DNA from: a virus
Length of the DNA: 64,000 nucleotides
IMG/VR virus record: IMGVR_UViG_3300034685_000230
Span: 1-64,000 of that record
Strand: one strand, 5' to 3'
The stretch's first letter is position 1. The number at the start of each line of letters is the position of its first letter. Under the pieces are notes generated by a model that was not told where the DNA came from, ran no database searches, and was given only the letters and a program-made list of their open reading frames with translations. Of this stretch, positions 1 through 50,224 are shown in pieces. The translations under genes and the position numbers were made by a program.

Positions 1-126
1 AGCATCCTATGGTGACTATATATTCCCATATAACGTAGCCCGATAGGGTTAATACCCCCTGGCTGAGGCTAATCAACTGAGCTTGTTAATCACAAGCTCC
101 ACCCTCTATAGGGTGGGGTAGTTGAC
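1..126 (-). ncRNA. IscB-type omegaRNA / HEARO RNA 5' portion (IS200/IS605-family element running off the left edge)
   Basis: Minus strand reads GTCAACTACCCCACCCTATAGAGGGTGGAGCTTGTGATTAACAAGCTCAGTTGATTAGCCTCAG...CTACGTT...ATAGTCACCATAGGATGCT. This matches the typical HEARO/IscB omegaRNA start and contains hairpins CCACCCT/AGGGTGG and GAGCTTG/CAAGCTC. Any associated ORF would lie outside the window. Confidence 0.75.
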
Positions 127-9009: not shown

Positions 9010-9180
9010 CTACCCTACTTTTTTTTTACCCAACTCTTTCTTGAACAAGTCAACCTCCTCGGAGTTGTTGAGGAACTCCAGCACTTCCCTCTCAACTCTC
9101 TGGGAGATTAAGTTAATCTTCTCACCGTACTCCTTGACCATCTGCGTAAACTTATCGTTTCCCCACTTGGGATCAGCCAT
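9010..9180 (-). CDS. 56-aa ORF MADPKWGNDKF...ELGKKKVG (5' part of a putative frameshifted gene)
   Basis: GAGGTG RBS then ATG at 9180. Ends GGT AAA AAA AAA GTA GGG TAG; a -1 shift joins it to 7862-8938. Confidence 0.6.
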   Translation of the reverse strand: MADPKWGNDKFTQMVKEYGEKINLISQRVEREVLEFLNNSEEVDLFKKELGKKKVG

Positions 9181-9202
9181 CGTAACACCTCGGCATTCGT
9201 CG

Positions 9203-9300
9203 GTGAACTAATTACAGTCTAAAACTGCAATCTTCCTGCTTCAGCGACTGCAAGGTTCACAGTCTCTACAGGCGTAAATTCCCTGCGTCCCGCAGGTACT
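9203..9300 (-). ncRNA. orphan TnpB-type omegaRNA scaffold (copy B)
   Basis: AGTACCTGCGGGACGCAGGGAATTTACGCCTGTAGAGAC...GTCGCTGAAGCAGGAAG-hairpin-TAGTTCAC; homologous to 44791-44890. Confidence 0.7.
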
Positions 9301-9569
9301 AGGTTTATTTATTTTTGAACTATTTTAGTCATAATAATCATATTATTTGCTGAATAAATATTTTTTTGTTATATCGTTCTTACGATTGAGCAATTTAACA
9401 TACTCTCTCTTTATCAAATAAATAATTTTTCTTCTATTGTTAGAGTCCTTTACTTATCAATTTAACTTCTTTTGTAAACGTTTAAGGCACTCACTTTTTT
9501 CAATAGAAACGTTTAACTTCTCACCGTTTGAGAGAGTAATATTAGTCTTAAAATTTATATATTATTAAC

Positions 9570-10097
9570 TTATGAAAAGTTGTTTATCCAAATCTTGTCG
9601 GCGGCGAACATGCTGCTGATCTCCAGCACCCCGTCATCCTCTACCGACAGGGTGATGTTCTCAATGTTCGTCGGCCAGACACCGCTCGCCTTGATCTCGT
9701 ACTGCAGCGAGTTTCCGGAGTCGTCCATGTCGGCCGTGATGTCGTACACGTTTATAGTAGCTTCCTTCTTGTACTCGTGGGCTAGTGCGATGCGGCCCGT
9801 GTTGTGGTCAAACACTAGGTTTCTCCAGCGGTACAGATCTAAGAGCGTGTCGTAAGAGTTGTCAACACCGACGAGAAAACTAGCCGTAATCGTGTACTGC
9901 TGGCTGACTCTCCCCGCCAACTGCATGATACCGCTGATCCACGGTACTGGCACGTTGTTAGTCGCAGGCATGGGTATCGTAAGAGTCCTACAGAGAATGT
10001 GTAAGGGTTCTTGGCCGACAACGATAAGTTCGAACGCGTTCTTGCGTACGAAGTCACTTCTTATGTCTACCGGGTGGTATATGTTTCGGTCACGCAC
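9570..10097 (-). CDS. tail tube protein (gp19-like)
   Basis: RKNAFEL, WRNLVFD..TG..EYKK, GVWPTNI; immediately downstream of the sheath gene. Confidence 0.8.
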   Translation of the reverse strand: MRDRNIYHPVDIRSDFVRKNAFELIVVGQEPLHILCRTLTIPMPATNNVPVPWISGIMQLAGRVSQQYTITASFLVGVDNSYDTLLDLYRWRNLVFDHNTGRIALAHEYKKEATINVYDITADMDDSGNSLQYEIKASGVWPTNIENITLSVEDDGVLEISSMFAADKIWINNFS

Positions 10098-26975: not shown

Positions 26976-29900
26976 ATGGACAGAAAAGACTACACGGCTC
27001 TCCTGTCAGAGAGAGTCTGGCCCAGGGTTGAGAGACAGCTTTTGGGTGGAATCGCTGACAGGGGGCTTCAGAGAAACTTGAAAACTGTTCTCGCTAACAC
27101 GAGAAACGCGCTTTTGGCTGACACGTCAATGCAGAACATGGTATACCTCAGTGTGGGGTCATTTTAGCGAGAGCTAAAATAGCAAATCGGGTGAATTGCT
27201 GGGACTCTTTAGAGCCTCTAGTGCTACAGCGTAGTCGGTAACGACAAGCGCGAAAGCTCTAAAAAACTTAGAGGATTAGGGAATCAGCAGCCGAGCAGCC
27301 AGTACACTGGTTGAAGGTCCAGAGACTACCGGAGAGATGCTCTTAGTTCTTAAGAGCGAGTTCTCTTAATAACCGGCTAGAGCGCCCGACCCTTAGTTAT
27401 AAAGCTAAGGTGAAGATATAGTCCATCCCACAGCGAAAGCTGCGGACAAGATGCCCGAAAATTGTACTACCGTTAGTTAGACGTCTCAACGTAGGGACCG
27501 CTGTAGGGTAACCTACAGTTGCAAATTCGGTGAATTGCTGGGAGCCTTTAGAGCCCTCGGTGCTACAGCGTAGCTGGCAACGGCAGGCGCGAACGCTCTA
27601 AAAAACCGTAGGGATTAGGTAATCAGCAGCCAAGCTCCCGAAAGCGCAAGATAGTAGGGAGAAGGTTCAGAGACTAGAGGTTGAGCCAGCGCAGGCAATA
27701 ACACCTCCTCGAGCGCCGAATAACTAAAGCAGTATAGCTTTAGTTAATGATATAGTCCACTCTAGGGTGAAAGCCTTAGGTAGAGTGCTTTCCAAAACTG
27801 ATTGCGAATCAGATTATCTCGGTTCAGCCGCTCAACGGACCAACGGGTTATTAATCTAGCTCGTTTAAAATCGGGTGAATTGCTGGGAGTTCCTAAAGCT
27901 CTTAGTACTACAGAGTAGCCGGAAACGGCAAGCTCGAAAGTTTGAAAAACTAAGAGATGCAACAATGGATAACCAGCAGCCAAGCTCCTGAAGGTACATT
28001 AAGAGTATGGAGAAGGTTCAGAGACTAGAGGTTGAGCTAGTACAAGCAATAACACCTCCTAGAGCGCCCGACAAGTATTGAGTACCTTGACAATTAAATA
28101 ATACTATAGATTATATAATAATTAATATAAAAAATATTAATATATTATGGGACAGGTGCTGATCACACTTGATAAATTTAACCCTCATTTATCTTACCAT
28201 AATATATTCAATAAAAAGAGGGTTAATTATGATTCAATGTCCAATATGTAAAAAATATTTTAAGCATATTAATAACATGCATTTAAAAAAACATAATTTA
28301 ACTACTGAACAATTTAAATCATTATATCCTAATTATAATACATGTTCTAAAGAATTTAGTGAAAAACGATCGGCTGCTAATAAAATACAAATGTTAAAAA
28401 TTCATAAAAAAAATCCAAAAGAAAGATATGTTAATGTTGGTATTGGTCGAAAAAAAGCTTGGGATAATTGTTCAGAAGAAAGACGAAAAGAGATAGGGTT
28501 AAAAGCTACTGAATGTTGGAGAAAATATGATTTAAATGAAGAAAATAAACGAAAAAAATATAAAAAAGTTTCTAAATCTCTTAAAAAATATTATAAAAAT
28601 TTAGATCCAAAAGAAAAAGAAAAAATATTGAAAAATAGTTTATTTAAAATTAGAAAACATGGTGGAGCTAAAATAGAAACTAATATTAACGGAAAAATAA
28701 TTAAATTTCGATCAATACCAGAAATTTGGATAGCAGAGTTTTTAGAACAAAGTGGTTTTAGTTGGGAATATGAAACTTTAAAAATTGATTATTTAGACAA
28801 AAATAATAATATGCATATATATATTCCTGATTTTTATATAAAAGATTATAATTTAGTTTTAGAATTTAAAGGTAAAAATTTTCTTGAAGAAGATATTGAA
28901 ATATATAAAAAATACTATACAGAAAAAGCCGGATTTAATTATATTTTATTAATGTATCAAGAAAAATATTTATTATTAAAAGAATTAAAAAAGATTTTTA
29001 ATCTATAGTATTATTTAATTATTAGGTACTCAATACTTGAAGATATAGTCCGTTCCGTAGTGAAAGCTACGGAGTAAAACGTGGATTCGGTTCCTTGACG
29101 CATTTGTTGAACACATTAATCCAGCTACTGGCAACGTAAACATCTACCCCTGGTCTCAGGGTGACAGCACGTACTCTACACCGCAGAATGATTTAACGGT
29201 TGAAATTTCAGCTGATGGTACTGACACAAACTATACTGGAGTACTAAAAGACAGCGATAATAATATACTGGTACCGTCGGAGGGAACGCTCTTTGTGGAG
29301 ATTGAAAGTTCCTCCGGTACGTGGACGAAGATAGCCGAGGCTGACAGGAGTGGAGTGCTTCACTCTCTGAGTTCCGCCTATAAAGTTATAGGTGTCGTTG
29401 ACCCTAAAACACAAGAGTTTGTCGTTAACGTTACAGACTCAGCCGGCACCGTAGTCGGAAAAGCGCTTCGCTTTGCCTTTAAGGAAGACATTCAGAAGAA
29501 CATCCCGTTCGGCGACGGTAAGACCTACAACACGATGCGGTTTGAGATCACCAAGATCGCCGTCGAGGCTAAGACCCGTAAGCTGGGTGCCACGTACAGC
29601 TTCGAGCTCATGGAAGACTACAAGAACGAGTTCGGTGAGAACTTCGAGGACAAGATGGTCGACTACCTAACCACGACTATTCTGACGGAGGTCGACAGTG
29701 AGGTAATCGACACGCTGTTCAGTAAGGCTACCGTAAGCGGTTCTTGGGACGCCACGATGCCGATGACGTGGACTCGCGGTATCAACCAGTGGTACGAGAC
29801 GGTGCTGCCGAAGATAAACAAGCTGAGCAACTACATCTACCAGGCAACCCACGTCTCCGGAGCAACGTTCCTGGTCTGCAGCCCCGTTACGGCTACCATC

Positions 29901-34249: not shown

Positions 34250-34633
34250 TCAGTGGTAGTAGATCGGTGTGTTCGGGTAACTTACGATAACCCTATATAG
34301 TTTAATCTTCCCACCGTCTGGAAGCTCAGAAGCTTCTTCCGAAAGCTCTCCGCCGCAGTACTGCACGACTACAGCCCTGTCTCCCACACTTAACTCTACA
34401 GTCTCACTACTACAGACTACACCGATGATACTAGCCAACCCCCTGTGCCTAACGTAGCTCTTGTATCCCGACCGAACGTACATGTCCATAACGCTCTTAA
34501 CGTTACCGCGGTCTAAGTTAAAGTAGTCCGTTATGTCGGCAACGTATACGTCGCAGGGAAAAGCGCTGTCCCTCAGCATGTCTAAGCTAAGCGTGTCGAG
34601 AATGTACTCTTCACTCATAAAAACCCCCCTCAC
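34250..34633 (-). CDS. divergent AcrIII-1 / DUF1874 (STIV B116, YddF)-like protein
   Basis: YILDTLSLDML (cf. YL.NAFS.NML), SYVRH (cf. SAVGH), L..GD..VVVQY.GG.L.E.A..LP.G..I. ATG near 34618 is the likely start. Confidence 0.6.
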   Translation of the reverse strand: MRGVFMSEEYILDTLSLDMLRDSAFPCDVYVADITDYFNLDRGNVKSVMDMYVRSGYKSYVRHRGLASIIGVVCSSETVELSVGDRAVVVQYCGGELSEEASELPDGGKIKLYRVIVSYPNTPIYYH

Positions 34634-35094
34634 TGGATAATCTTAACCCTCCACCCCTTAGTCTCGGCATCGTACCACCAGAGTCTAACACTTCTTAAGT
34701 AGACTCGAAGCAAGCTGTAGCATATGCTACACGGGTGTGACGACAAAAGCCTGCGCGTTCCCCTTAAGACAACTACGTCTGTGACACCGTCGGTTAACTC
34801 TTTTCTTAGCAGTTTGATCACGAGGTCTGCTTCGGCGTGAATTGACATGCACTTTAGATCGTGGTAAGTTTCCTTAAGAAAAGGATGTGTCTTCAGCTTG
34901 TTTTCACCGTACTCTACGAGTTTTGAACCGTCGAGAGCTACAGCTACGCAGCGAAGGCTTGAGTCAAAGCGTCGCGTGTTCTTTAAGTTGTGTTCTTTAG
35001 ACATTGTGGCAATCTCGGGTAAGATAGAAGGGAGAGCTCCCTTAAATCTTTTCCCTACTTTAACGTAGCTTGAGTTTAACCCAACACTTTTCAT
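34630..35094 (-). CDS. cytidine/dCMP deaminase-fold zinc protein
   Basis: HAE ... PCSIC zinc motif. Confidence 0.75.
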   Translation of the reverse strand: MKSVGLNSSYVKVGKRFKGALPSILPEIATMSKEHNLKNTRRFDSSLRCVAVALDGSKLVEYGENKLKTHPFLKETYHDLKCMSIHAEADLVIKLLRKELTDGVTDVVVLRGTRRLLSSHPCSICYSLLRVYLRSVRLWWYDAETKGWRVKIIQ

Positions 35095-35136: not shown

Positions 35137-35319
35137 GTGAACTACCCCCACCTATAGAGGTGGTGGCTTCGTGGTCAATGCTCCCATCGGAGCAAGATTA
35201 CCCACGCTCAAAGGGCTGTTCCTTCCCCAGCTTTACCAATTATACAGTATTAGGAAAGAATTGTCAAGCGACATTCATCACCCACTTATAGAAGTGGGCG
35301 ACTTCTGTCGTTAATTAGG
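35137..35319 (-). mobile_element. non-autonomous IS200/IS605 mini-element: left-end hairpin + sigma70 promoter + TnpB-type omegaRNA/right end
   Basis: Minus strand: TTTAA | left-end hairpin (CCCACTT/AAGTGGG, 35269-35310); TTGACA-17-TATAAT (35267-35239); structured RNA; right-end hairpin CCACCTCTATAGGTGG-GGGTAGTTCAC. No ORF. Confidence 0.75.
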
Positions 35320-44376: not shown

Positions 44377-44670
44377 TTATAACTCCCTCATGTACAAGTC
44401 ACCCACGAAGTCAAACTGAGTGCCGTACGGCCACTCGTCAGGATCGTCGTAGTCACTTTTTCTCTCCGTTACCCTAAAGCTACTCTCCGCGACTACTACC
44501 GCTACAACAACGCCGCCCTCCGTAACCTCGTCTGGAATTCCGTCTGGGTCGTCTGAGTAGTCGTCAAGTATGTTTTGAGCCATTCTCATCGCATCTTCCT
44601 TACTGTCGGCTAAGTACTTACAGTTGTTAAATTTATCGTAGACAATCCACCTAACTCTTTTGTCTTCCAT
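44377..44670 (-). CDS. hypothetical protein
   Basis: AGGAG RBS. Confidence 0.6.
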   Translation of the reverse strand: MEDKRVRWIVYDKFNNCKYLADSKEDAMRMAQNILDDYSDDPDGIPDEVTEGGVVVAVVVAESSFRVTERKSDYDDPDEWPYGTQFDFVGDLYMREL

Positions 44671-44790
44671 CTTACTCTCCTTTTTACTTATAGTTAATAT
44701 ACACCAACAACTTATTATCTATGATCTTTTCATTCAGACTAAATGCTTGCAAAATATAAATTAATAATATAGAAATACTGAGTGTATCAG

Positions 44791-44890
44791 AGTACCTGTG
44801 GAACACAGGGAATTTACGCCTGTGGAGACTTCGGAAGTCTGTAGTCGCTGAAGCAGGAAGACTACAACTTTTAAGTTGTAGTTAGTTCAC
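44791..44890 (+). ncRNA. orphan TnpB-type omegaRNA scaffold (copy A)
   Basis: AGTACCTGTGGAACACAGGGAATTTACGCCTGTGGAGAC...GTCGCTGAAGCAGGAAG-ACTACAACT/AGTTGTAGT-TAGTTCAC; no tnpB ORF upstream. Confidence 0.7.
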
Positions 44891-44910
44891 CAAAATCTCT
44901 TTATTTTTTC

Positions 44911-45162
44911 TTATCTTTCTTTTTTATTTCTTCTAACTTTGTATTCTTCATACTTAAGCTCTTTGATTACTTCCCACGTGGGTTCATCCTCGTTGTATAC
45001 TTCGCACCACGTGTTAAAGATGTCCTTTAACAGGGCGCGACACTCTTGTTCAGAAAAATTGCCGGCTGAACCAGCACTAACACAAACACTCATTATTTTG
45101 TCAAGTAGAAAATCTTTTTTTAAAACTAACTTTTTAAGTTCATCGACACTTAAATCCACCAT
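44911..45162 (-). CDS. hypothetical protein
   Basis: AGGAGG RBS; has a decayed paralogue at 45629-45854. Confidence 0.6.
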   Translation of the reverse strand: MVDLSVDELKKLVLKKDFLLDKIMSVCVSAGSAGNFSEQECRALLKDIFNTWCEVYNEDEPTWEVIKELKYEEYKVRRNKKER

Positions 45163-45628: not shown

Positions 45629-45854
45629 TTACGCCTCTTCTTTTAATTTTCTAACTATTCTCCACACGGAGTCGTATTCTCTCTCTACTTCACACCACAC
45701 CGCGTCAATGTCTTTTAATACAGCGCGACACTCATACTCAGGAAAACCGCTGCCAGTAGGACTAGCGTTTAACGTGAACTGTTAGAATCTTATCTAACAT
45801 GGAACCTAACTACAGTGTTACCTTTCTTAACTCCACAATATTCAAGTCAGACAC
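45629..45854 (-). pseudogene. pseudogene paralogue of 44911-45162
   Basis: Reads VSDLNIVELRKVTL*LGSMLDKILTVHV/..FPEYECRA/LKDIDAVWCEV..WRIVRKLKEE, versus MVDLSVDELKKLVL..LLDKIMSV..FSEQECRALLKDIFNTWCEV..WEVIKELK. One stop and two frameshifts. Confidence 0.7.
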
Positions 45855-45983
45855 TACACTACCTTTCTTCTTCTATTCTTCATTCCATTATTCACGTGTA
45901 TATTATACCATACTGCTACTAAAAAGTAAACAGGCCGACACTACAACGTGTGTCGACCTGTACAGTACTTACTCAACAATCCT

Positions 45984-46654: not shown

Positions 46655-49600
46655 CTATATAGTGCACGTTGGGCACGAAGTACCAAAGTGCATAAACTCC
46701 TCGATAGACGGGCTCTCCTTAACCTCCTCACAGTCATCCTCTGCAAGCTTCCTGCTGTCGTACAGCGACAGGTAGTACTTGTTCAAGTCGGCGAGCATCT
46801 TGCTAGCCGCGTCTGGGATACTCTTAACAACGATCTCCTTTCCCCTTAAAGACTTGTAGAACCAAACCTCGGACCCAGCTATGTCGCTCAGCGTGCTGAC
46901 TAAGTCCTCAATGTCTACTCCCGAGCGTAGGGCTAAGCTTATGACTCTACCCAGAGCCTCGGTTATGGACTTTAGGATACTCCCTGACTTACCTATCGAG
47001 ATAAACGTTTCGAACATTCTCTTATCGTCGTCGAAGTTTGCCGTTATGTAGATTGAACCGTACGGGGAGCTACACTTCGTGGTTACTCCCTGCACGAACT
47101 GCGGCCGCGGCCTGACCCTCCCCTTCTGACCCCCTGACTCATCCCTGTCTATCTTCTTAATCGGTTGCCCGCTACGCGAACCGTCCCTGTATATCGTGAC
47201 TCCCTTGATACCGTTGTCGAAACAGTACTCGTAAATTTTTCTAACGTCATCGACGGTTGACTCACTCGGCATGTTAACCGTCTTACTTATAGCGCTGTCG
47301 ATGTACGGAGCGAAGACGGCAACCGCCCTAACGTGCTGCTCAGGCGTGATGTCGTGAGCCTTGACTAGCAACCCCCTCGCCTTGTTCTCCTCGTTGTACA
47401 GCCGGTGGTAGTACGTTAGCTGCCGCCTCTCAGTGGGAGACACGACAACGTCTCTAGTCCACTCGTATGAAAAGTTAGGCTCGATTCCCGAGCTTGTGTT
47501 TAACAGTATCGATATCGTCCCGGTAGGTGCGATCGACAACCTTCTCGAGTTTCTCAAGCCACCCTTGCCCCTCTCAGTACTGAACACCGACTTAAACAAC
47601 TCTAAGACAAGCTCGTCGCTTACAATGTAGCTTCGGTCGTTGTACACGCACGCCAGTGCGTTCTTAAAGGACACGGGTAAGTCGGAGTTAGGGATAACTT
47701 CGCTTACTATACTGTCTATACTACTACTCGATATATCCGAGCCCCTCACAACCCTAGTTAGGTAGTTTCTCTCACCGCTCTCCTCGTCGAAGTGTGGGTA
47801 GGGTCCCTTCAACAAGGCTATGGCTGCGGATGCTATCAGGGAGTACTCGGCTAAAATTCTAGCAACACTCAGCGAGAACTCCTCGAACTCCCTCGAACCG
47901 TACTTAATCCCCATCATAATGCACGCGTCTGCCAACCCCATGATACCCAGTCCGACCGGGCGAATGTCCTTAGTATTCTTCTCTATCTTCTTCAGCGGGT
48001 AGTTTGTTACGTCAATAACTAAGTCTAGGTAGTACACCGACCGCAAGACCTGGTCCTTAAACTCCTTGTAGTTGAAGCTACGGTTCTCGTCTACGAACTC
48101 AGCTAGGTTGATCGACCCAAGGTTGCAGCTAGAGTCGTTAGGCAGCGGCTGCTCACCGCACTGCAGGCTGTTGACAAAGTACAGCTCCGAGTCGGTGCTG
48201 GTAGGTAGTACCGTGCAGATGTTGTGGTACTCGTCTACGGTACCGTTGTAGACCGTTTCCTTACCTATGTAGCTTATGCTTATAATCCTATTGTTGTAGT
48301 GCTGGGACGGTTTTCTCACCCTACCGTAGTCTTCCAACGGTAGCGGTTCCTCTAAAAGCTTAGCTTGTGCTTCACCCTTACTGTATTTACTAATTGATTC
48401 TTTTTTTTCTAATTGTTTATTTAGCTTAGCATTTAAATCTATACGACGTTTAGAAAATCGTTCTTGAATTTCTTTTCTTTTATCAGCTATTAGTTGTCTT
48501 CTTTCTTCACGTGTAGTACTACTGTTAGTTTTAAGAACGGCTAGTTTATGCCCACACTCCGAAGAACATGCGGAAATTTCTCTTCTATTAAAGGGAACGG
48601 TAAACTTTTTACCACAAACTTCACAGTATTTTTCTACGTAAATACTATTCTCGTTAATAAAACATTTTAAATCAGTGTACTGCTGGCATACTTCTAACTT
48701 TTTAGCCAACCTGTCCTGTAAATACCTATCACGTAGATTACTTATTTCTCTTTTAATATTGTCAACCACTGTATTATTATCAATATTAGTATATTTTTGT
48801 CTAAGTTCTGAACTTTGATTAAAATTACTCTTAATGGCTTCTCTTGTTTTTTCCTGAATTTCTAACCTATTCAACTCCACATCATGTAAAATTTTGCTCC
48901 CTACCCACAAGCTGTCGCCTGCGCGCAGCTCTGAAACCTCCTTGTACTCACCGCTCTCCGTCTTAAACTTGTGGTCCCCGGTTGCTTTGATAACGGAGCC
49001 GTCAAACAGTTTGATTTCATAAACATCCTTATCGTAGCCGGTAACCCTCGGGTTTCGCATTGTCTTGACAACGATATGGTTGTCGCTGTTCAAGCAGTAT
49101 ACCGGTACGTCCTTACCCTCCTCGGCTAGCTGCTTAAACGCTACGGCGTTTCTACCGTCGGCTGTCGCTACTAGGGTGTCACCCGTCAAGCACGGGTTTG
49201 TAGCCTCAATACGATACCTCCCGTCACTCTTGAGCAAGTTGTCCCGGTTTGCCGTGTCGATAAAGAATAACCCAGGGTCTCCGTTCTTATGCGCGTTTTG
49301 ACAGATCTTGTCCCACAGATTTCTCGCCTTAACGGTCTTTACCACGCGGCCTGAAGCTGGAGACACTAGGTCGTACACGCCGTCGCTTCTCAAAGCCTCC
49401 ATAAACTTGTCGTCCACGGCTACGGAGATGTTGAAGTAGTTTAGGTTACCGTCGCTTTCCTTACATGAGACAAACTCCTCGATGTCCGGGTGGTGCACGT
49501 TAAGGATTCCCATCAGCGCCGCGCGCCTCTTTCCACCCTGAACTACACTCGAACCCATCGCGTTCCAGTTGTGCATGAAGGAGACCGGACCCGAAGCCCT

Positions 49601-50224
49601 GCCGCCGCAGCCGCCGGCTATCAGCGCTCCCTTCTCTCTCAAGTTTCCAAAGTTAGCACCGACCCCGCCGCCAAACTTTGAAATTATCGCAGCGTTCTTA
49701 ACGCTGTCGAATATCCCCTCGATCGAGTCAGGAACCTCAATGGTAAAGCACGCGAACATCATCTGGTTCTTACTGTAATTCTTAGAAATCTTTTCATACG
49801 TGTCTCTTATCTCTTCGTAATTCTCTCTAGCAAGTGTCTTGTAGAGGTACTTACTCAGCGCTTTGTTTGAGCTGATTCCAACGCCGGCCGAAAACAAAGT
49901 TGGGGAGTTAAACAAAAACCTGTGACTCATCATGTCGTTGTATATACTGTTCTCTATGTTTAGCACGTACTCTAAGTCCTCGTCAGGCATGCCTTCCCTG
50001 TACTCCCCGGCAGCGACAACCCTCGCGACTCTCCGGCACAGCTGGGAGTAGTTACTCTCCCTTTGCCCGTCGGGTAAGTCCATGAAATACCTTAGCTTCA
50101 AAACTTCCTGAGCGTTCTCGTCAACCTCTTTGTTCATGGTTACTAGCGGTGATGGCTGCGCAAACACCCTCTCCCTGTACAGCTTGCTTAAGGAAGCACT
50201 GTCCGTAGGCAACGTATACTTCAC
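46655..50224 (-). CDS. nrdJ: class II (B12-dependent) ribonucleotide reductase with intein and TSCPD domain
   Basis: FNSPTL, FACF, GGGVG, QGGKRRAALM, TNP|CGEQPL, CNLGSINL, IAPTGTIS, SAISKTVNMP, KGVTIYRDGSR. Confidence 0.93.
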   Translation of the reverse strand: MKYTLPTDSASLSKLYRERVFAQPSPLVTMNKEVDENAQEVLKLRYFMDLPDGQRESNYSQLCRRVARVVAAGEYREGMPDEDLEYVLNIENSIYNDMMSHRFLFNSPTLFSAGVGISSNKALSKYLYKTLARENYEEIRDTYEKISKNYSKNQMMFACFTIEVPDSIEGIFDSVKNAAIISKFGGGVGANFGNLREKGALIAGGCGGRASGPVSFMHNWNAMGSSVVQGGKRRAALMGILNVHHPDIEEFVSCKESDGNLNYFNISVAVDDKFMEALRSDGVYDLVSPASGRVVKTVKARNLWDKICQNAHKNGDPGLFFIDTANRDNLLKSDGRYRIEATNPCLTGDTLVATADGRNAVAFKQLAEEGKDVPVYCLNSDNHIVVKTMRNPRVTGYDKDVYEIKLFDGSVIKATGDHKFKTESGEYKEVSELRAGDSLWVGSKILHDVELNRLEIQEKTREAIKSNFNQSSELRQKYTNIDNNTVVDNIKREISNLRDRYLQDRLAKKLEVCQQYTDLKCFINENSIYVEKYCEVCGKKFTVPFNRREISACSSECGHKLAVLKTNSSTTREERRQLIADKRKEIQERFSKRRIDLNAKLNKQLEKKESISKYSKGEAQAKLLEEPLPLEDYGRVRKPSQHYNNRIISISYIGKETVYNGTVDEYHNICTVLPTSTDSELYFVNSLQCGEQPLPNDSSCNLGSINLAEFVDENRSFNYKEFKDQVLRSVYYLDLVIDVTNYPLKKIEKNTKDIRPVGLGIMGLADACIMMGIKYGSREFEEFSLSVARILAEYSLIASAAIALLKGPYPHFDEESGERNYLTRVVRGSDISSSSIDSIVSEVIPNSDLPVSFKNALACVYNDRSYIVSDELVLELFKSVFSTERGKGGLRNSRRLSIAPTGTISILLNTSSGIEPNFSYEWTRDVVVSPTERRQLTYYHRLYNEENKARGLLVKAHDITPEQHVRAVAVFAPYIDSAISKTVNMPSESTVDDVRKIYEYCFDNGIKGVTIYRDGSRSGQPIKKIDRDESGGQKGRVRPRPQFVQGVTTKCSSPYGSIYITANFDDDKRMFETFISIGKSGSILKSITEALGRVISLALRSGVDIEDLVSTLSDIAGSEVWFYKSLRGKEIVVKSIPDAASKMLADLNKYYLSLYDSRKLAEDDCEEVKESPSIEEFMHFGTSCPTCTI
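48161..49192 (-). mobile_element. intein (344 aa) at the RNR active-site NP/CGE position, ending in Gln
   Basis: Starts CLTGDTLVATADG; block B ATGDHKF; block F VYNGTVDEYHN; ends NSLQ, followed by Cys+1 (CGEQ). Confidence 0.9.

What the first reader, a model, noticed from the sequence alone, without database searches (positions are those of the whole stretch)
44791..44910. Orphan TnpB-type omegaRNA copy A, structurally conserved with copy B 35 kb away
Seen: 44791-44890(+) and 9203-9300(-) share AGTACCTG..CAGGGAATTTACGCCTGT.GAGAC..GTCGCTGAAGCAGGAAG..TAGTTCAC. Differences are compensatory (CCTGTG/CACAGG vs CCTGCG/CGCAGG; ACTACAACT/AGTTGTAGT vs ATTGCAGTT/GACTGTAAT). Neither has a tnpB ORF or an obvious left-end hairpin, and their 3' flanks (putative guides) differ; here it is CAAAATCTCTTTATTTTTTC. 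Inference: a dispersed set of trans-acting guides for one TnpB/TldR-like effector, i.e. a possible phage-encoded multi-guide OMEGA system, or clean relics of two insertions.
Basis: partly seen in the sequence, partly recalled or inferred. Interest (0 to 1): 0.75.

Follow-up and report, generated by a model that had tools for sequence, protein, structure and literature searches.

The report
Gene-less TnpB guide-RNA relics in phage
Two 100-base folded RNA modules in an 89-kb anaerobic-digester phage are the surviving guide-RNA scaffolds of TnpB mobile elements that have lost their nuclease gene; this kind of leftover is already known and is most likely idle here.

Summary
Copy A (44791-44890, +) and copy B (9203-9300, -) are 81% identical, fold the same way and differ mostly by pair-preserving changes.

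They are TnpB omegaRNA scaffolds. A covariance model built without them, from the 3' ends of tnpB elements in bacteria, archaea and a related phage, scores them at 87 and 79.5 bits. It finds nothing else strong in the whole 89.5-kb genome.

The genome has no TnpB, no Y1 TnpA and no serine recombinase. Intact TnpB genes with the same scaffold class occur in related phage contigs (L050, 418 aa) and in a phage-like metagenome contig (L075, 426 aa).

- **Copy B** is not clean. The roughly 260 nt upstream are a decayed tnpB: two blocks with stop codons, an internal deletion and a missing 5' half.
- **Copy A** is an internal-deletion miniature. It keeps 21 nt of the tnpB 5' leader plus the scaffold, and it is antisense to its neighbours.
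- Each copy lies in a segment that is absent from a near-identical relative.

No expression, no TAM and no usable target were shown.

Verdict: relics of phage-borne TnpB homing elements, a new member of a known kind (stand-alone omegaRNAs, PATE-like minis). This scan has noted similar gene-less relics in many other phages.

The parts
44791..44890 (+). Copy A: omegaRNA scaffold. P1 hairpin 44795-44809; closing helix 44810-44814 with 44884-44888; P2/P3 44819-44857; P4 (right-end) hairpin 44860-44883; terminal TTCAC 44886-44890.
   Evidence: Fold. Hit of model R2, built without A and B, at 44790-44890: 87 bits, E 1e-23. Same architecture as tnpB-linked relatives.
44891..44910 (+). 3' flank of A, the position a TnpB guide would occupy. 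Intergenic, ending at the stop codon of the minus-strand 83-aa gene.
   Evidence: Similarity between A and B ends at TTCAC(C). The only exact matches are A's own site and the A-less relative L041, where the same TTCAC precedes it.
44751..44771 (+). 21-nt remnant of the tnpB 5' leader (left part of the element).
   Evidence: Exact match to positions -27 to -7 upstream of the start codon of the intact tnpB in L073/L075. Unique in the phage genome.
44729..44887 (.). 159-nt block (boundaries +/-2 nt because of a shared TT) that holds copy A and is absent from relative L041.
   Evidence: blastn and junction reading. L041 flanks are 93-97% identical. L041 reads ..CTATGATCTTCACCAAAATC..
9203..9301 (-). 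Copy B: omegaRNA scaffold, same architecture as A, ending in TAGTTCAC.
   Evidence: Fold. R2 hit of 79.5 bits, E 1.9e-21. 85% identical to the scaffold of the intact element in L073/L075.
9183..9202 (-). 3' flank of B (guide position). It overlaps the ribosome-binding site of the 56-aa ORF 9010-9180.
   Evidence: The corresponding site in the B-less relative L062 differs at 5 of 16 positions.
9361..9558 (-). Decayed tnpB fragment, block 1, matching aa 224-289 of the L075 TnpB, with two in-frame stops.
   Evidence: tblastn: 62% identity, E 8e-25. 74% nucleotide identity to L073/L075. GC 26% against 48% in the scaffold.
9302..9407 (-). Decayed tnpB fragment, block 2 (zinc-finger end and RuvC-III region, from about aa 364), running into the scaffold. 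About aa 290-363 are deleted.
   Evidence: tblastn of L075 aa 364-421 on window 9222-9407: 41% identity, E 2e-13, with stops.
35137..35232 (-). Element C: a distant third member of the scaffold class, behind a perfect TTGACA-N17-TATAAT. Not part of the finding, but it belongs to the same population of elements.
   Evidence: R2 gives 17.8 bits, E 0.006. Sequence. Copies 98% identical sit at other sites in related phages.

Best explanation
A and B are the right-end guide-RNA (omegaRNA) scaffolds of two different tnpB-only elements of the IS200/IS605 superfamily. Such elements circulate among phages of anaerobic digesters.

In an intact element (seen in L050 and L075), the 3' end of the tnpB mRNA folds into this scaffold and TnpB binds it. 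The 16-20 nt just past the terminal TTCAC then guide the nuclease to the allele that lacks the element, and that allele is cut and repaired from the occupied copy (homing, as described for TnpB).

In this phage the nuclease gene has been destroyed.
- B keeps two stop-ridden tnpB blocks. It lacks the first ~223 codons and about 74 internal codons.
- A keeps only 21 nt of the 5' leader and the scaffold.

What remains is structurally intact RNA-coding DNA with no protein partner in the genome. By default it is an idle passenger. B is probably transcribed passively within the late tail operon. A is antisense to its neighbours and may not be made at all.

Shown: identity, architecture, gene loss, and presence/absence polymorphism against close relatives. 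Inferred: the homing mechanism of the parents and the present idleness.
For: **Scaffold identity**
- Model R2, built from 12 tnpB-linked sequences and excluding A and B, scores A at 87 bits and B at 79.5 bits. It finds only one other weak hit in the whole genome.
- A pattern derived from A/B found 38 places in prokaryote genomes. Many are the 3' ends of real TnpB genes (Pfam OrfB_IS605 plus Cas12f1-like TNB). They share P1-GAAUUYACGCCUGUGGAG-P3-GUCGCUGAAGCAGGAAG-P4-(U)AGUUCAC.
- Covariation is strong: 85.8% of cells are paired against 67% in shuffles and 35-47% when the partners are slid. 20 of 28 pairs show double changes.

**Parent elements**
- Intact TnpBs with this scaffold class are L050:883-2139 in related phages (sheath protein 73% identical) and L075:1883-3163.

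**Gene loss**
- B's upstream region matches L075 TnpB aa 224-289 (E 8e-25) and aa 364-421 (E 2e-13), with stops and a deletion.
- A keeps 21 nt of the leader.
- The genome has no TnpB, TnpA or resolvase.

**Polymorphism**
- A's block is absent from L041 and B's from L062.

**Signs of idleness**
- No promoter stands above chance.
- A is antisense to a real gene that is conserved in L041.
- The tnpB remnants have drifted to 17-26% GC, like the phage's AT-rich intergenic DNA. Intact tnpB is 38-39% GC.
Against: - Both scaffolds are flawless. Every stem is paired, GC is 45-48%, and their model scores are as high as those of scaffolds next to intact genes. The adjacent tnpB DNA has decayed badly. 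This contrast could mean the RNA is still under selection.
- Stand-alone omegaRNAs are reported to work in trans with compatible effectors (PMC10691335), and compatible TnpBs exist in phages of the same habitat.
- A third, tnpB-less scaffold (C) sits behind a perfect promoter, which suggests that some of these minis are expressed.
- The 'no effector' claim covers only this genome. The host is unknown.
Confidence: 0.7

Rival explanations
1. Working trans-acting guides. The orphan scaffolds are kept because they load a TnpB supplied by the host or by a co-infecting phage. They then direct it against rival phage genomes that lack the insertion (marker exclusion or homing), or against some other target.
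For: - The scaffolds are structurally perfect beside decayed tnpB DNA.
- Stand-alone omegaRNAs function in trans (PMC10691335).
- Intact TnpBs with 78-85% identical scaffolds occur in phage-like contigs of the same kind of habitat.
- B is co-oriented with the late tail genes, so it is probably transcribed.
Against: - No effector in the genome.
- The only A-less relative (L041) has the same TTCAC directly before the A target as the occupied site does. A 5-nt TAM could therefore not tell rival from self.
- The B-less relative (L062) differs from the B guide at 5 of 16 positions, three of them next to the scaffold end.
- A has no convincing promoter and lies antisense to its neighbours.
- B's remnant looks like ordinary decay.
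Confidence: 0.2
2. Exapted for another job. The folded RNA now serves the phage as a 5' leader, a processing or stability element or a small RNA, independent of TnpB.
For: B (and element C) lie in the 5' leader of a downstream ORF on the same strand. The structure is intact.
Against: - A is antisense to both neighbours.
- Close relatives do without either element.
- Sequence conservation tracks the TnpB scaffold class, not the neighbouring phage genes.
- No Rfam family matches.
Confidence: 0.07
3. Not an RNA element at all: a chance repeat or a DNA-level motif.
Against: - Independent model hits at E 1e-23 and 2e-21.
- Covariation across 33 distinct sequences.
- The fold is strand-specific, with G-U pairs.
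Confidence: 0.01

Closest known systems
omegaRNA (reRNA) of TnpB in IS200/IS605-superfamily elements, e.g. ISDra2 (Karvelis 2021, PMC8612924) and the ISGst elements (Meers 2023, bioRxiv 10.1101/2023.03.14.532601)
   Same: - The scaffold overlaps the last codons of tnpB.
- It ends at the element's right end after a subterminal hairpin.
- It is followed by flank-derived sequence in the guide position.
- Homologous scaffolds sit behind bona fide TnpB genes.
   Different: - No tnpB in cis or anywhere in the genome.
- No Rfam family covers this scaffold class.
- The parents in these phages are tnpB-only and show no matching left-end hairpin and no TnpA.
Stand-alone (effector-less) omegaRNAs of OMEGA systems (Altae-Tran 2021, as summarised in PMC10691335)
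   Same: A mobilised scaffold without effector or transposase. Each copy sits next to a different flank.
   Different: The described cases lie in the same genome as a compatible effector and were shown to work in trans. Here the nearest effectors are in other phages, and no activity is shown.
PATEs, the non-autonomous IS200/IS605 miniatures that often carry an omegaRNA (Meers 2023)
   Same: A is a short (about 160 nt), protein-less derivative that keeps a piece of the left part and the whole right part of its parent.
   Different: A and B have no left-end hairpin matching the right-end hairpin. B is a truncated pseudogene, not a miniature with two ends. A and B are only 81% identical, so they are not recent copies of one another.
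Free-standing homing endonuclease genes of T4-like phages and their decayed remnants
   Same: The intact relatives (L050, L075) sit between conserved phage genes, with presence/absence polymorphism among relatives and no transposase. This phage also carries group I introns and an intein.
   Different: Target recognition would be by RNA, not protein. Homing has not been demonstrated for these elements.

Membership tests
TnpB omegaRNA / right end of a tnpB element | Sequence-and-structure homology to the RNA encoded at the 3' end of bona fide tnpB genes | tested here: met
   Model R2, built without A and B, gives 87 and 79.5 bits. The TnpB identity of the neighbouring genes is confirmed by Pfam. 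Caveat: most training sequences were fetched with a pattern derived from A/B. L048 was found independently through synteny, while L075 was itself fetched with an A/B-derived pattern.
TnpB omegaRNA / right end of a tnpB element | Scaffold overlaps the C-terminal codons of tnpB | tested here: met
   B reads ..EFTPVETVNLAVAEAGRLQF* in one frame, matching L075 ..EVTPVETVKFTVVEAGRLQLVSCG*. A carries the same tail with a frame break.
TnpB omegaRNA / right end of a tnpB element | Scaffold ends at the element boundary and is followed by unrelated flank (the guide) | tested here: met
   Identity between A and B stops at TAGTTCAC(C). Homology to the A-less L041 resumes within 3 nt of that point.
TnpB omegaRNA / right end of a tnpB element | A cognate TnpB encoded in cis, or at least in the same genome | tested here: not met
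   No match to PF07282, PF01385 or the L050 TnpB at E<=10 in the 89.5-kb record. Only decayed fragments lie next to B.
TnpB omegaRNA / right end of a tnpB element | RNA is made, processed and bound by TnpB, and the guided cleavage sits next to a TAM | not testable with these tools
   Contigs from RNA libraries did not cover A itself. They covered other elements of the class. The TAM is unknown.
PATE (non-autonomous IS200/IS605 miniature) | Matching subterminal hairpins at the left and right ends, flanked by TAM and TEM | tested here: not met
   Only the right-end hairpin (P4) is present. No comparable hairpin lies in 44729-44790 or upstream of B. Element C does have both.
PATE (non-autonomous IS200/IS605 miniature) | No coding capacity and derived from a full-length element by internal deletion | tested here: met
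   For A: 21-nt leader plus scaffold. B has an internal deletion but also a 5' truncation.
Stand-alone trans-acting omegaRNA | Compatible effector in the same genome and demonstrated activity in trans | tested here: not met
   No effector in the genome. Activity was not testable.
TldR-type guide RNA (nuclease-dead TnpB repressor) | Adjacent RuvC-dead TnpB homologue, with the guide matching a promoter | tested here: not met
   No TnpB-like ORF of any kind. The guides match only their own flanks.
Any curated Rfam family | Score at or near the gathering threshold | tested here: not met
   No relevant hit at the gathering threshold or at E<=10 around A and B.

The most novel reading that the evidence does not exclude
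The orphan scaffolds are 'guide-only' hitch-hikers kept by selection. When the phage meets a TnpB of the same clade, from the host or from a co-infecting phage such as the L075 or L050 type, its own scaffolds capture the nuclease. They then direct it to alleles of rival phages that lack the relic, biasing inheritance of the flanking phage genes without the cost of carrying the nuclease.
Probability: 0.12. Interest if true: 0.6.

Novelty: new member of a known kind. Interest (0 to 1): 0.3.

Why it matters
This case is an unusually complete decay series for phage-borne TnpB elements:
- an intact gene in relatives;
- a stop-ridden, internally deleted copy (B);
- a leader-plus-scaffold miniature (A);
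- a promoter-plus-scaffold mini that is still moving between phages (C).

It shows that the guide-RNA scaffold outlasts the nuclease gene.

It also shows that the scaffold core GCUGAAGCAGGAAG is read in two different protein frames in different TnpBs (SLKQEA or AEAGS). The RNA, not the peptide, is therefore what is conserved.

The case does not reveal a new system. Gene-less omegaRNAs are already described, and this scan has met them in many phages.

Tried and rejected
**Database searches that found nothing**
- Rfam at the gathering threshold and at E<=10 gave nothing relevant.
- blastn of B against the phage and plasmid collections gave no real hit. blastn of the A region against phages gave none.
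- An exact two-block pattern gave 0 hits in viral contigs. The degenerate pattern gave one, L069, another tnpB-less partial scaffold.
- The L050 TnpB scan of viral contigs returned only the three contigs already known.

**Signals near the copies**
- Promoter and terminator scans around A and B gave only chance-level matches.
- T4-type late promoter TATAAATA is not enriched: 9 found, 6.4 expected. I therefore dropped the idea that A's leader is a T4-like late promoter.

**Expression**
- Contigs of two metatranscriptomes cover the neighbouring 264-aa gene at 99% identity, but not A.
- What lands on A at 85-90% identity are 1.4-1.5-kb contigs of other elements of the class. One has the flanks of the L075 element.
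- Contigs cannot show absence, so this says nothing for or against transcription of A.

**Origin and ends of the elements**
- Gain versus loss of A could not be polarised.
- I considered TTCAT (left of A, and also at the tube-gene stop left of B) as the TAM and TTCAC as the element-end motif. The junctions do not fit cleanly, so this stays open.
- IS607-type (serine recombinase) and Y1 TnpA mobilisation from within the genome are excluded, because neither gene is present.

Full report
**1. The observation**

Copy A (window 44791-44890, + strand) and copy B (9203-9300, - strand) are real.
- They align at 81% identity. Similarity starts at AGTACC and ends at TAGTTCAC(C); beyond that the flanks are unrelated.
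- The conserved cores (16 and 17 nt) occur only at these two places. About 0.2-0.3 matches are expected by chance even with three mismatches allowed.
- Both copies fold alike on the named strand. The fold has a 6-bp hairpin P1 and a short closing helix (GAAUU with AGUUC). That helix encloses a helix with an inner variable hairpin (P2/P3) and a 10-bp hairpin P4. The energies are -33.8 and -34.4 kcal/mol, z about -3.
- The complementary strands fold worse. The differences between A and B are largely pair-preserving and include G-U pairs, which fixes the strand.

**2. Context**

The window is the first 64 kb of an 89,471-bp IMG/VR virus record, rated 100% complete, 44.5% GC.
- It is a myovirus with a family-B DNA polymerase, a ribonucleotide reductase carrying an intein, and tail sheath and tube genes. 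Two Rfam group I introns lie at 27.1-27.8 kb.
- B lies between the tail tube gene (9570-10097, -) and a 56-aa ORF (9010-9180, -), in the same orientation as both.
- A lies between two minus-strand genes (44377-44670 and 44911-45162), so it is antisense to them.
- The 83-aa minus-strand ORF is a real gene. It is intact in a relative, it has an AAAGGAGG ribosome-binding site, and the overlapping plus-strand ORF is broken in that relative.
- The phage is common in anaerobic digesters: it holds half or more of the sampled words in runs from nine further studies, apart from the four runs of its likely source study.

**3. What the repeat is**

Read as protein, B gives ..LVPAGRREFTPVETVNLAVAEAGRLQF*, which looked to me like the C-terminal tail of TnpB.

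*Pattern scan.* A degenerate DNA pattern for EFTPVE...AEAG gave 38 places among one genome for each of about 185,000 prokaryote species. I estimate one or two would be expected by chance.
- Many of the 38 are the last codons of genes that tblastn and Pfam identify as TnpB: OrfB_IS605, Cas12f1-like TNB and HTH_OrfB_IS605.
- They share the whole architecture of A and B, not just the motif used to fetch them. This comprises a covarying P1 hairpin, GAAUUYACGCCUGUGGAG, a variable hairpin and GUCGCUGAAGCAGGAAG. A covarying last hairpin and a terminal (U)AGUUCAC or GGUCAC follow, after which the sequences diverge.

*Covariation.* On 33 distinct sequences, 85.8% of pair cells are standard pairs. That compares with 67% in shuffles and 35-47% when the partners are slid. 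20 of 28 pairs show changes on both sides. The alignment was fitted to the model, so these figures lean towards the structure.

*Independent model.* A covariance model built without A and B scores them at 87 and 79.5 bits (E 1e-23 and 2e-21). In the whole genome it finds only one further weak hit, element C.

*Two reading frames.* The core GCUGAAGCAGGAAG is read as SLKQEA in some TnpBs and as (V)AEAGS in others. The RNA, not the peptide, is therefore the conserved entity.

No Rfam family matches.

**4. Where the nuclease is**

The phage has no TnpB (PF07282, PF01385, or the phage TnpB used as a query), no Y1 transposase and no serine recombinase.

*Intact TnpBs elsewhere:*
- Three contigs of related phages (sheath protein 73% identical) carry an intact 418-aa TnpB (L050:883-2139). 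It has all the catalytic and zinc-finger motifs and the same scaffold class, and it is inserted just upstream of the sheath gene. A sister contig (L047) shows the empty site.
- A metagenome scan found L073/L075, an intact 426-aa TnpB in a phage-like contig with DNA ligase and phage metallopeptidase neighbours.

*What is left in this phage:*
- **B.** Measured against the L075 TnpB, B is a wreck. Window 9361-9558 matches aa 224-289 (62% identity, E 8e-25, two in-frame stops). Window 9222-9407 matches aa 364-421 (E 2e-13). About 74 codons between the two blocks and the first ~223 codons are gone.
- **A.** A keeps only two pieces. One is 21 nt (44751-44771) identical to positions -27 to -7 of the tnpB leader of L073/L075, and unique in the genome. 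The other is the scaffold. A is thus an internal-deletion miniature.
- **Base composition.** The tnpB remnants have drifted to 17-26% GC, like the phage's AT-rich spacers, while intact tnpB is 38-39% GC. The scaffolds stay at 45-48%.

**5. Polymorphism**

- A relative with a 96% identical polymerase (L041) lacks a 159-nt block (44729-44887, +/-2 nt) that contains A. It reads ..CTATGATCTTCACCAAAATC...
- A relative with 91-97% identical flanks (L062) has about 20 nt where this phage has the ~356-nt segment 9203-9558 holding B and its tnpB remnant.

Whether these differences are gains here or losses there could not be settled.

**6. Does it do anything now?**

*Against activity:*
- There is no effector in the genome.
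- Promoter-like matches are at chance level.
- A is antisense to its neighbours.
- The guides match nothing but their own flanks.
- In L041 the A target is preceded by the same TTCAC as in the occupied site, so a 5-nt TAM could not distinguish rival from self.
- The L062 site differs from the B guide at 5 of 16 positions.

*For possible activity:*
- Both scaffolds are flawless beside decayed coding DNA.
- Stand-alone omegaRNAs are reported to work in trans (PMC10691335; Meers 2023).
- Compatible TnpBs circulate in the same kind of habitat.

Contigs from RNA libraries did not cover A. They did cover full-length elements of the class, which says nothing either way about A.

My estimates are:
- about 0.7 for idle relics of TnpB homing elements;
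- about 0.2 for guides that still work in trans;
- the rest for exaptation.

**7. Comparison and novelty**

The closest known things are:
- TnpB omegaRNAs of IS200/IS605-superfamily elements;
- the stand-alone omegaRNAs of OMEGA systems;
- PATE-like miniatures.

A and B meet the scaffold-defining features. They fail 'effector in cis or in the same genome', and they fail the PATE requirement of matching end hairpins.

The same scan has already reported gene-less TnpB scaffolds in many other phages. This is a well-resolved new member of a known kind, not a new system.

Noticed in passing
window 35137-35319 (-): Element C is a ~183-bp protein-less mini. It has a left hairpin, a perfect TTGACA-N17-TATAAT, a distant member of the same scaffold class (R2 E 0.006) and a right-end hairpin ending GGTAGTTCAC. 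It lies in the 5' leader of ORF 34630-35094. Copies 98% identical sit upstream of the sheath gene in L054/L055/L063, and an 87% copy lies downstream of the sheath gene in L048, so it has moved recently between related phages.
   Followed up: partly
window 1-126 (+): Element D has a hairpin like C's right-end hairpin followed by TAGTTGAC, right at the record's start. The covariance models do not hit it, and Rfam finds no HEARO/IscB RNA at the gathering threshold.
   Followed up: partly
L048:206-1468, L050:883-2144, L051:206-1468; empty site in L047: An intact 418-aa TnpB with its omegaRNA is inserted a few nt after a conserved AAAATTAAAT motif, just upstream of the sheath gene of related phages. 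No left-end hairpin and no transposase are present. The right end carries a 13-nt duplication (GTAGTTAGTCCAA) about 47 nt apart.
   Followed up: partly
window 12917(-), 17666(+), 23212(+), 45650(-) and others: AAAATTAAA is enriched (8 found, about 1.9 expected). It mostly lies 20-50 nt upstream of gene starts and is conserved upstream of the sheath gene in relatives. It may be a phage-specific promoter motif.
   Followed up: no
window 27139-27445 and 27475-27779 (+): Two tandem group I introns (Rfam RF00028, 76 and 90 bits) lie inside the capsid-gene region.
   Followed up: no
window 46655-50224 (-): The ribonucleotide reductase large subunit (1189 aa) carries an intein (Intein_splicing) and a C-terminal TSCPD domain.
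   Followed up: no
L041:2254-3133: The A-less relative has two extra small genes (about 870 nt) where this phage has about 25 nt, right next to the A site. A second indel lies at window 45695-45880.
   Followed up: no
L069:1929-2033 (+): An unrelated viral contig has a tnpB-less partial scaffold of the same class (52.6 bits) directly behind TTGACA-N16-TACAGT. This is a second case of 'promoter plus scaffold, no nuclease'.
   Followed up: partly
many tnpB 3' ends (L004, L026, L038 versus L008, L016, L027): The conserved RNA core GCUGAAGCAGGAAG is translated as SLKQEA in some TnpBs and as AEAGS in others. One RNA motif is thus read in two protein frames.
   Followed up: partly
genome 89,170-89,471 (outside the window): The record ends inside tandem ~99-nt repeats of a coding region, so the assembly probably broke in a repeat. 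The 'ends' are not physical ends.
   Followed up: no
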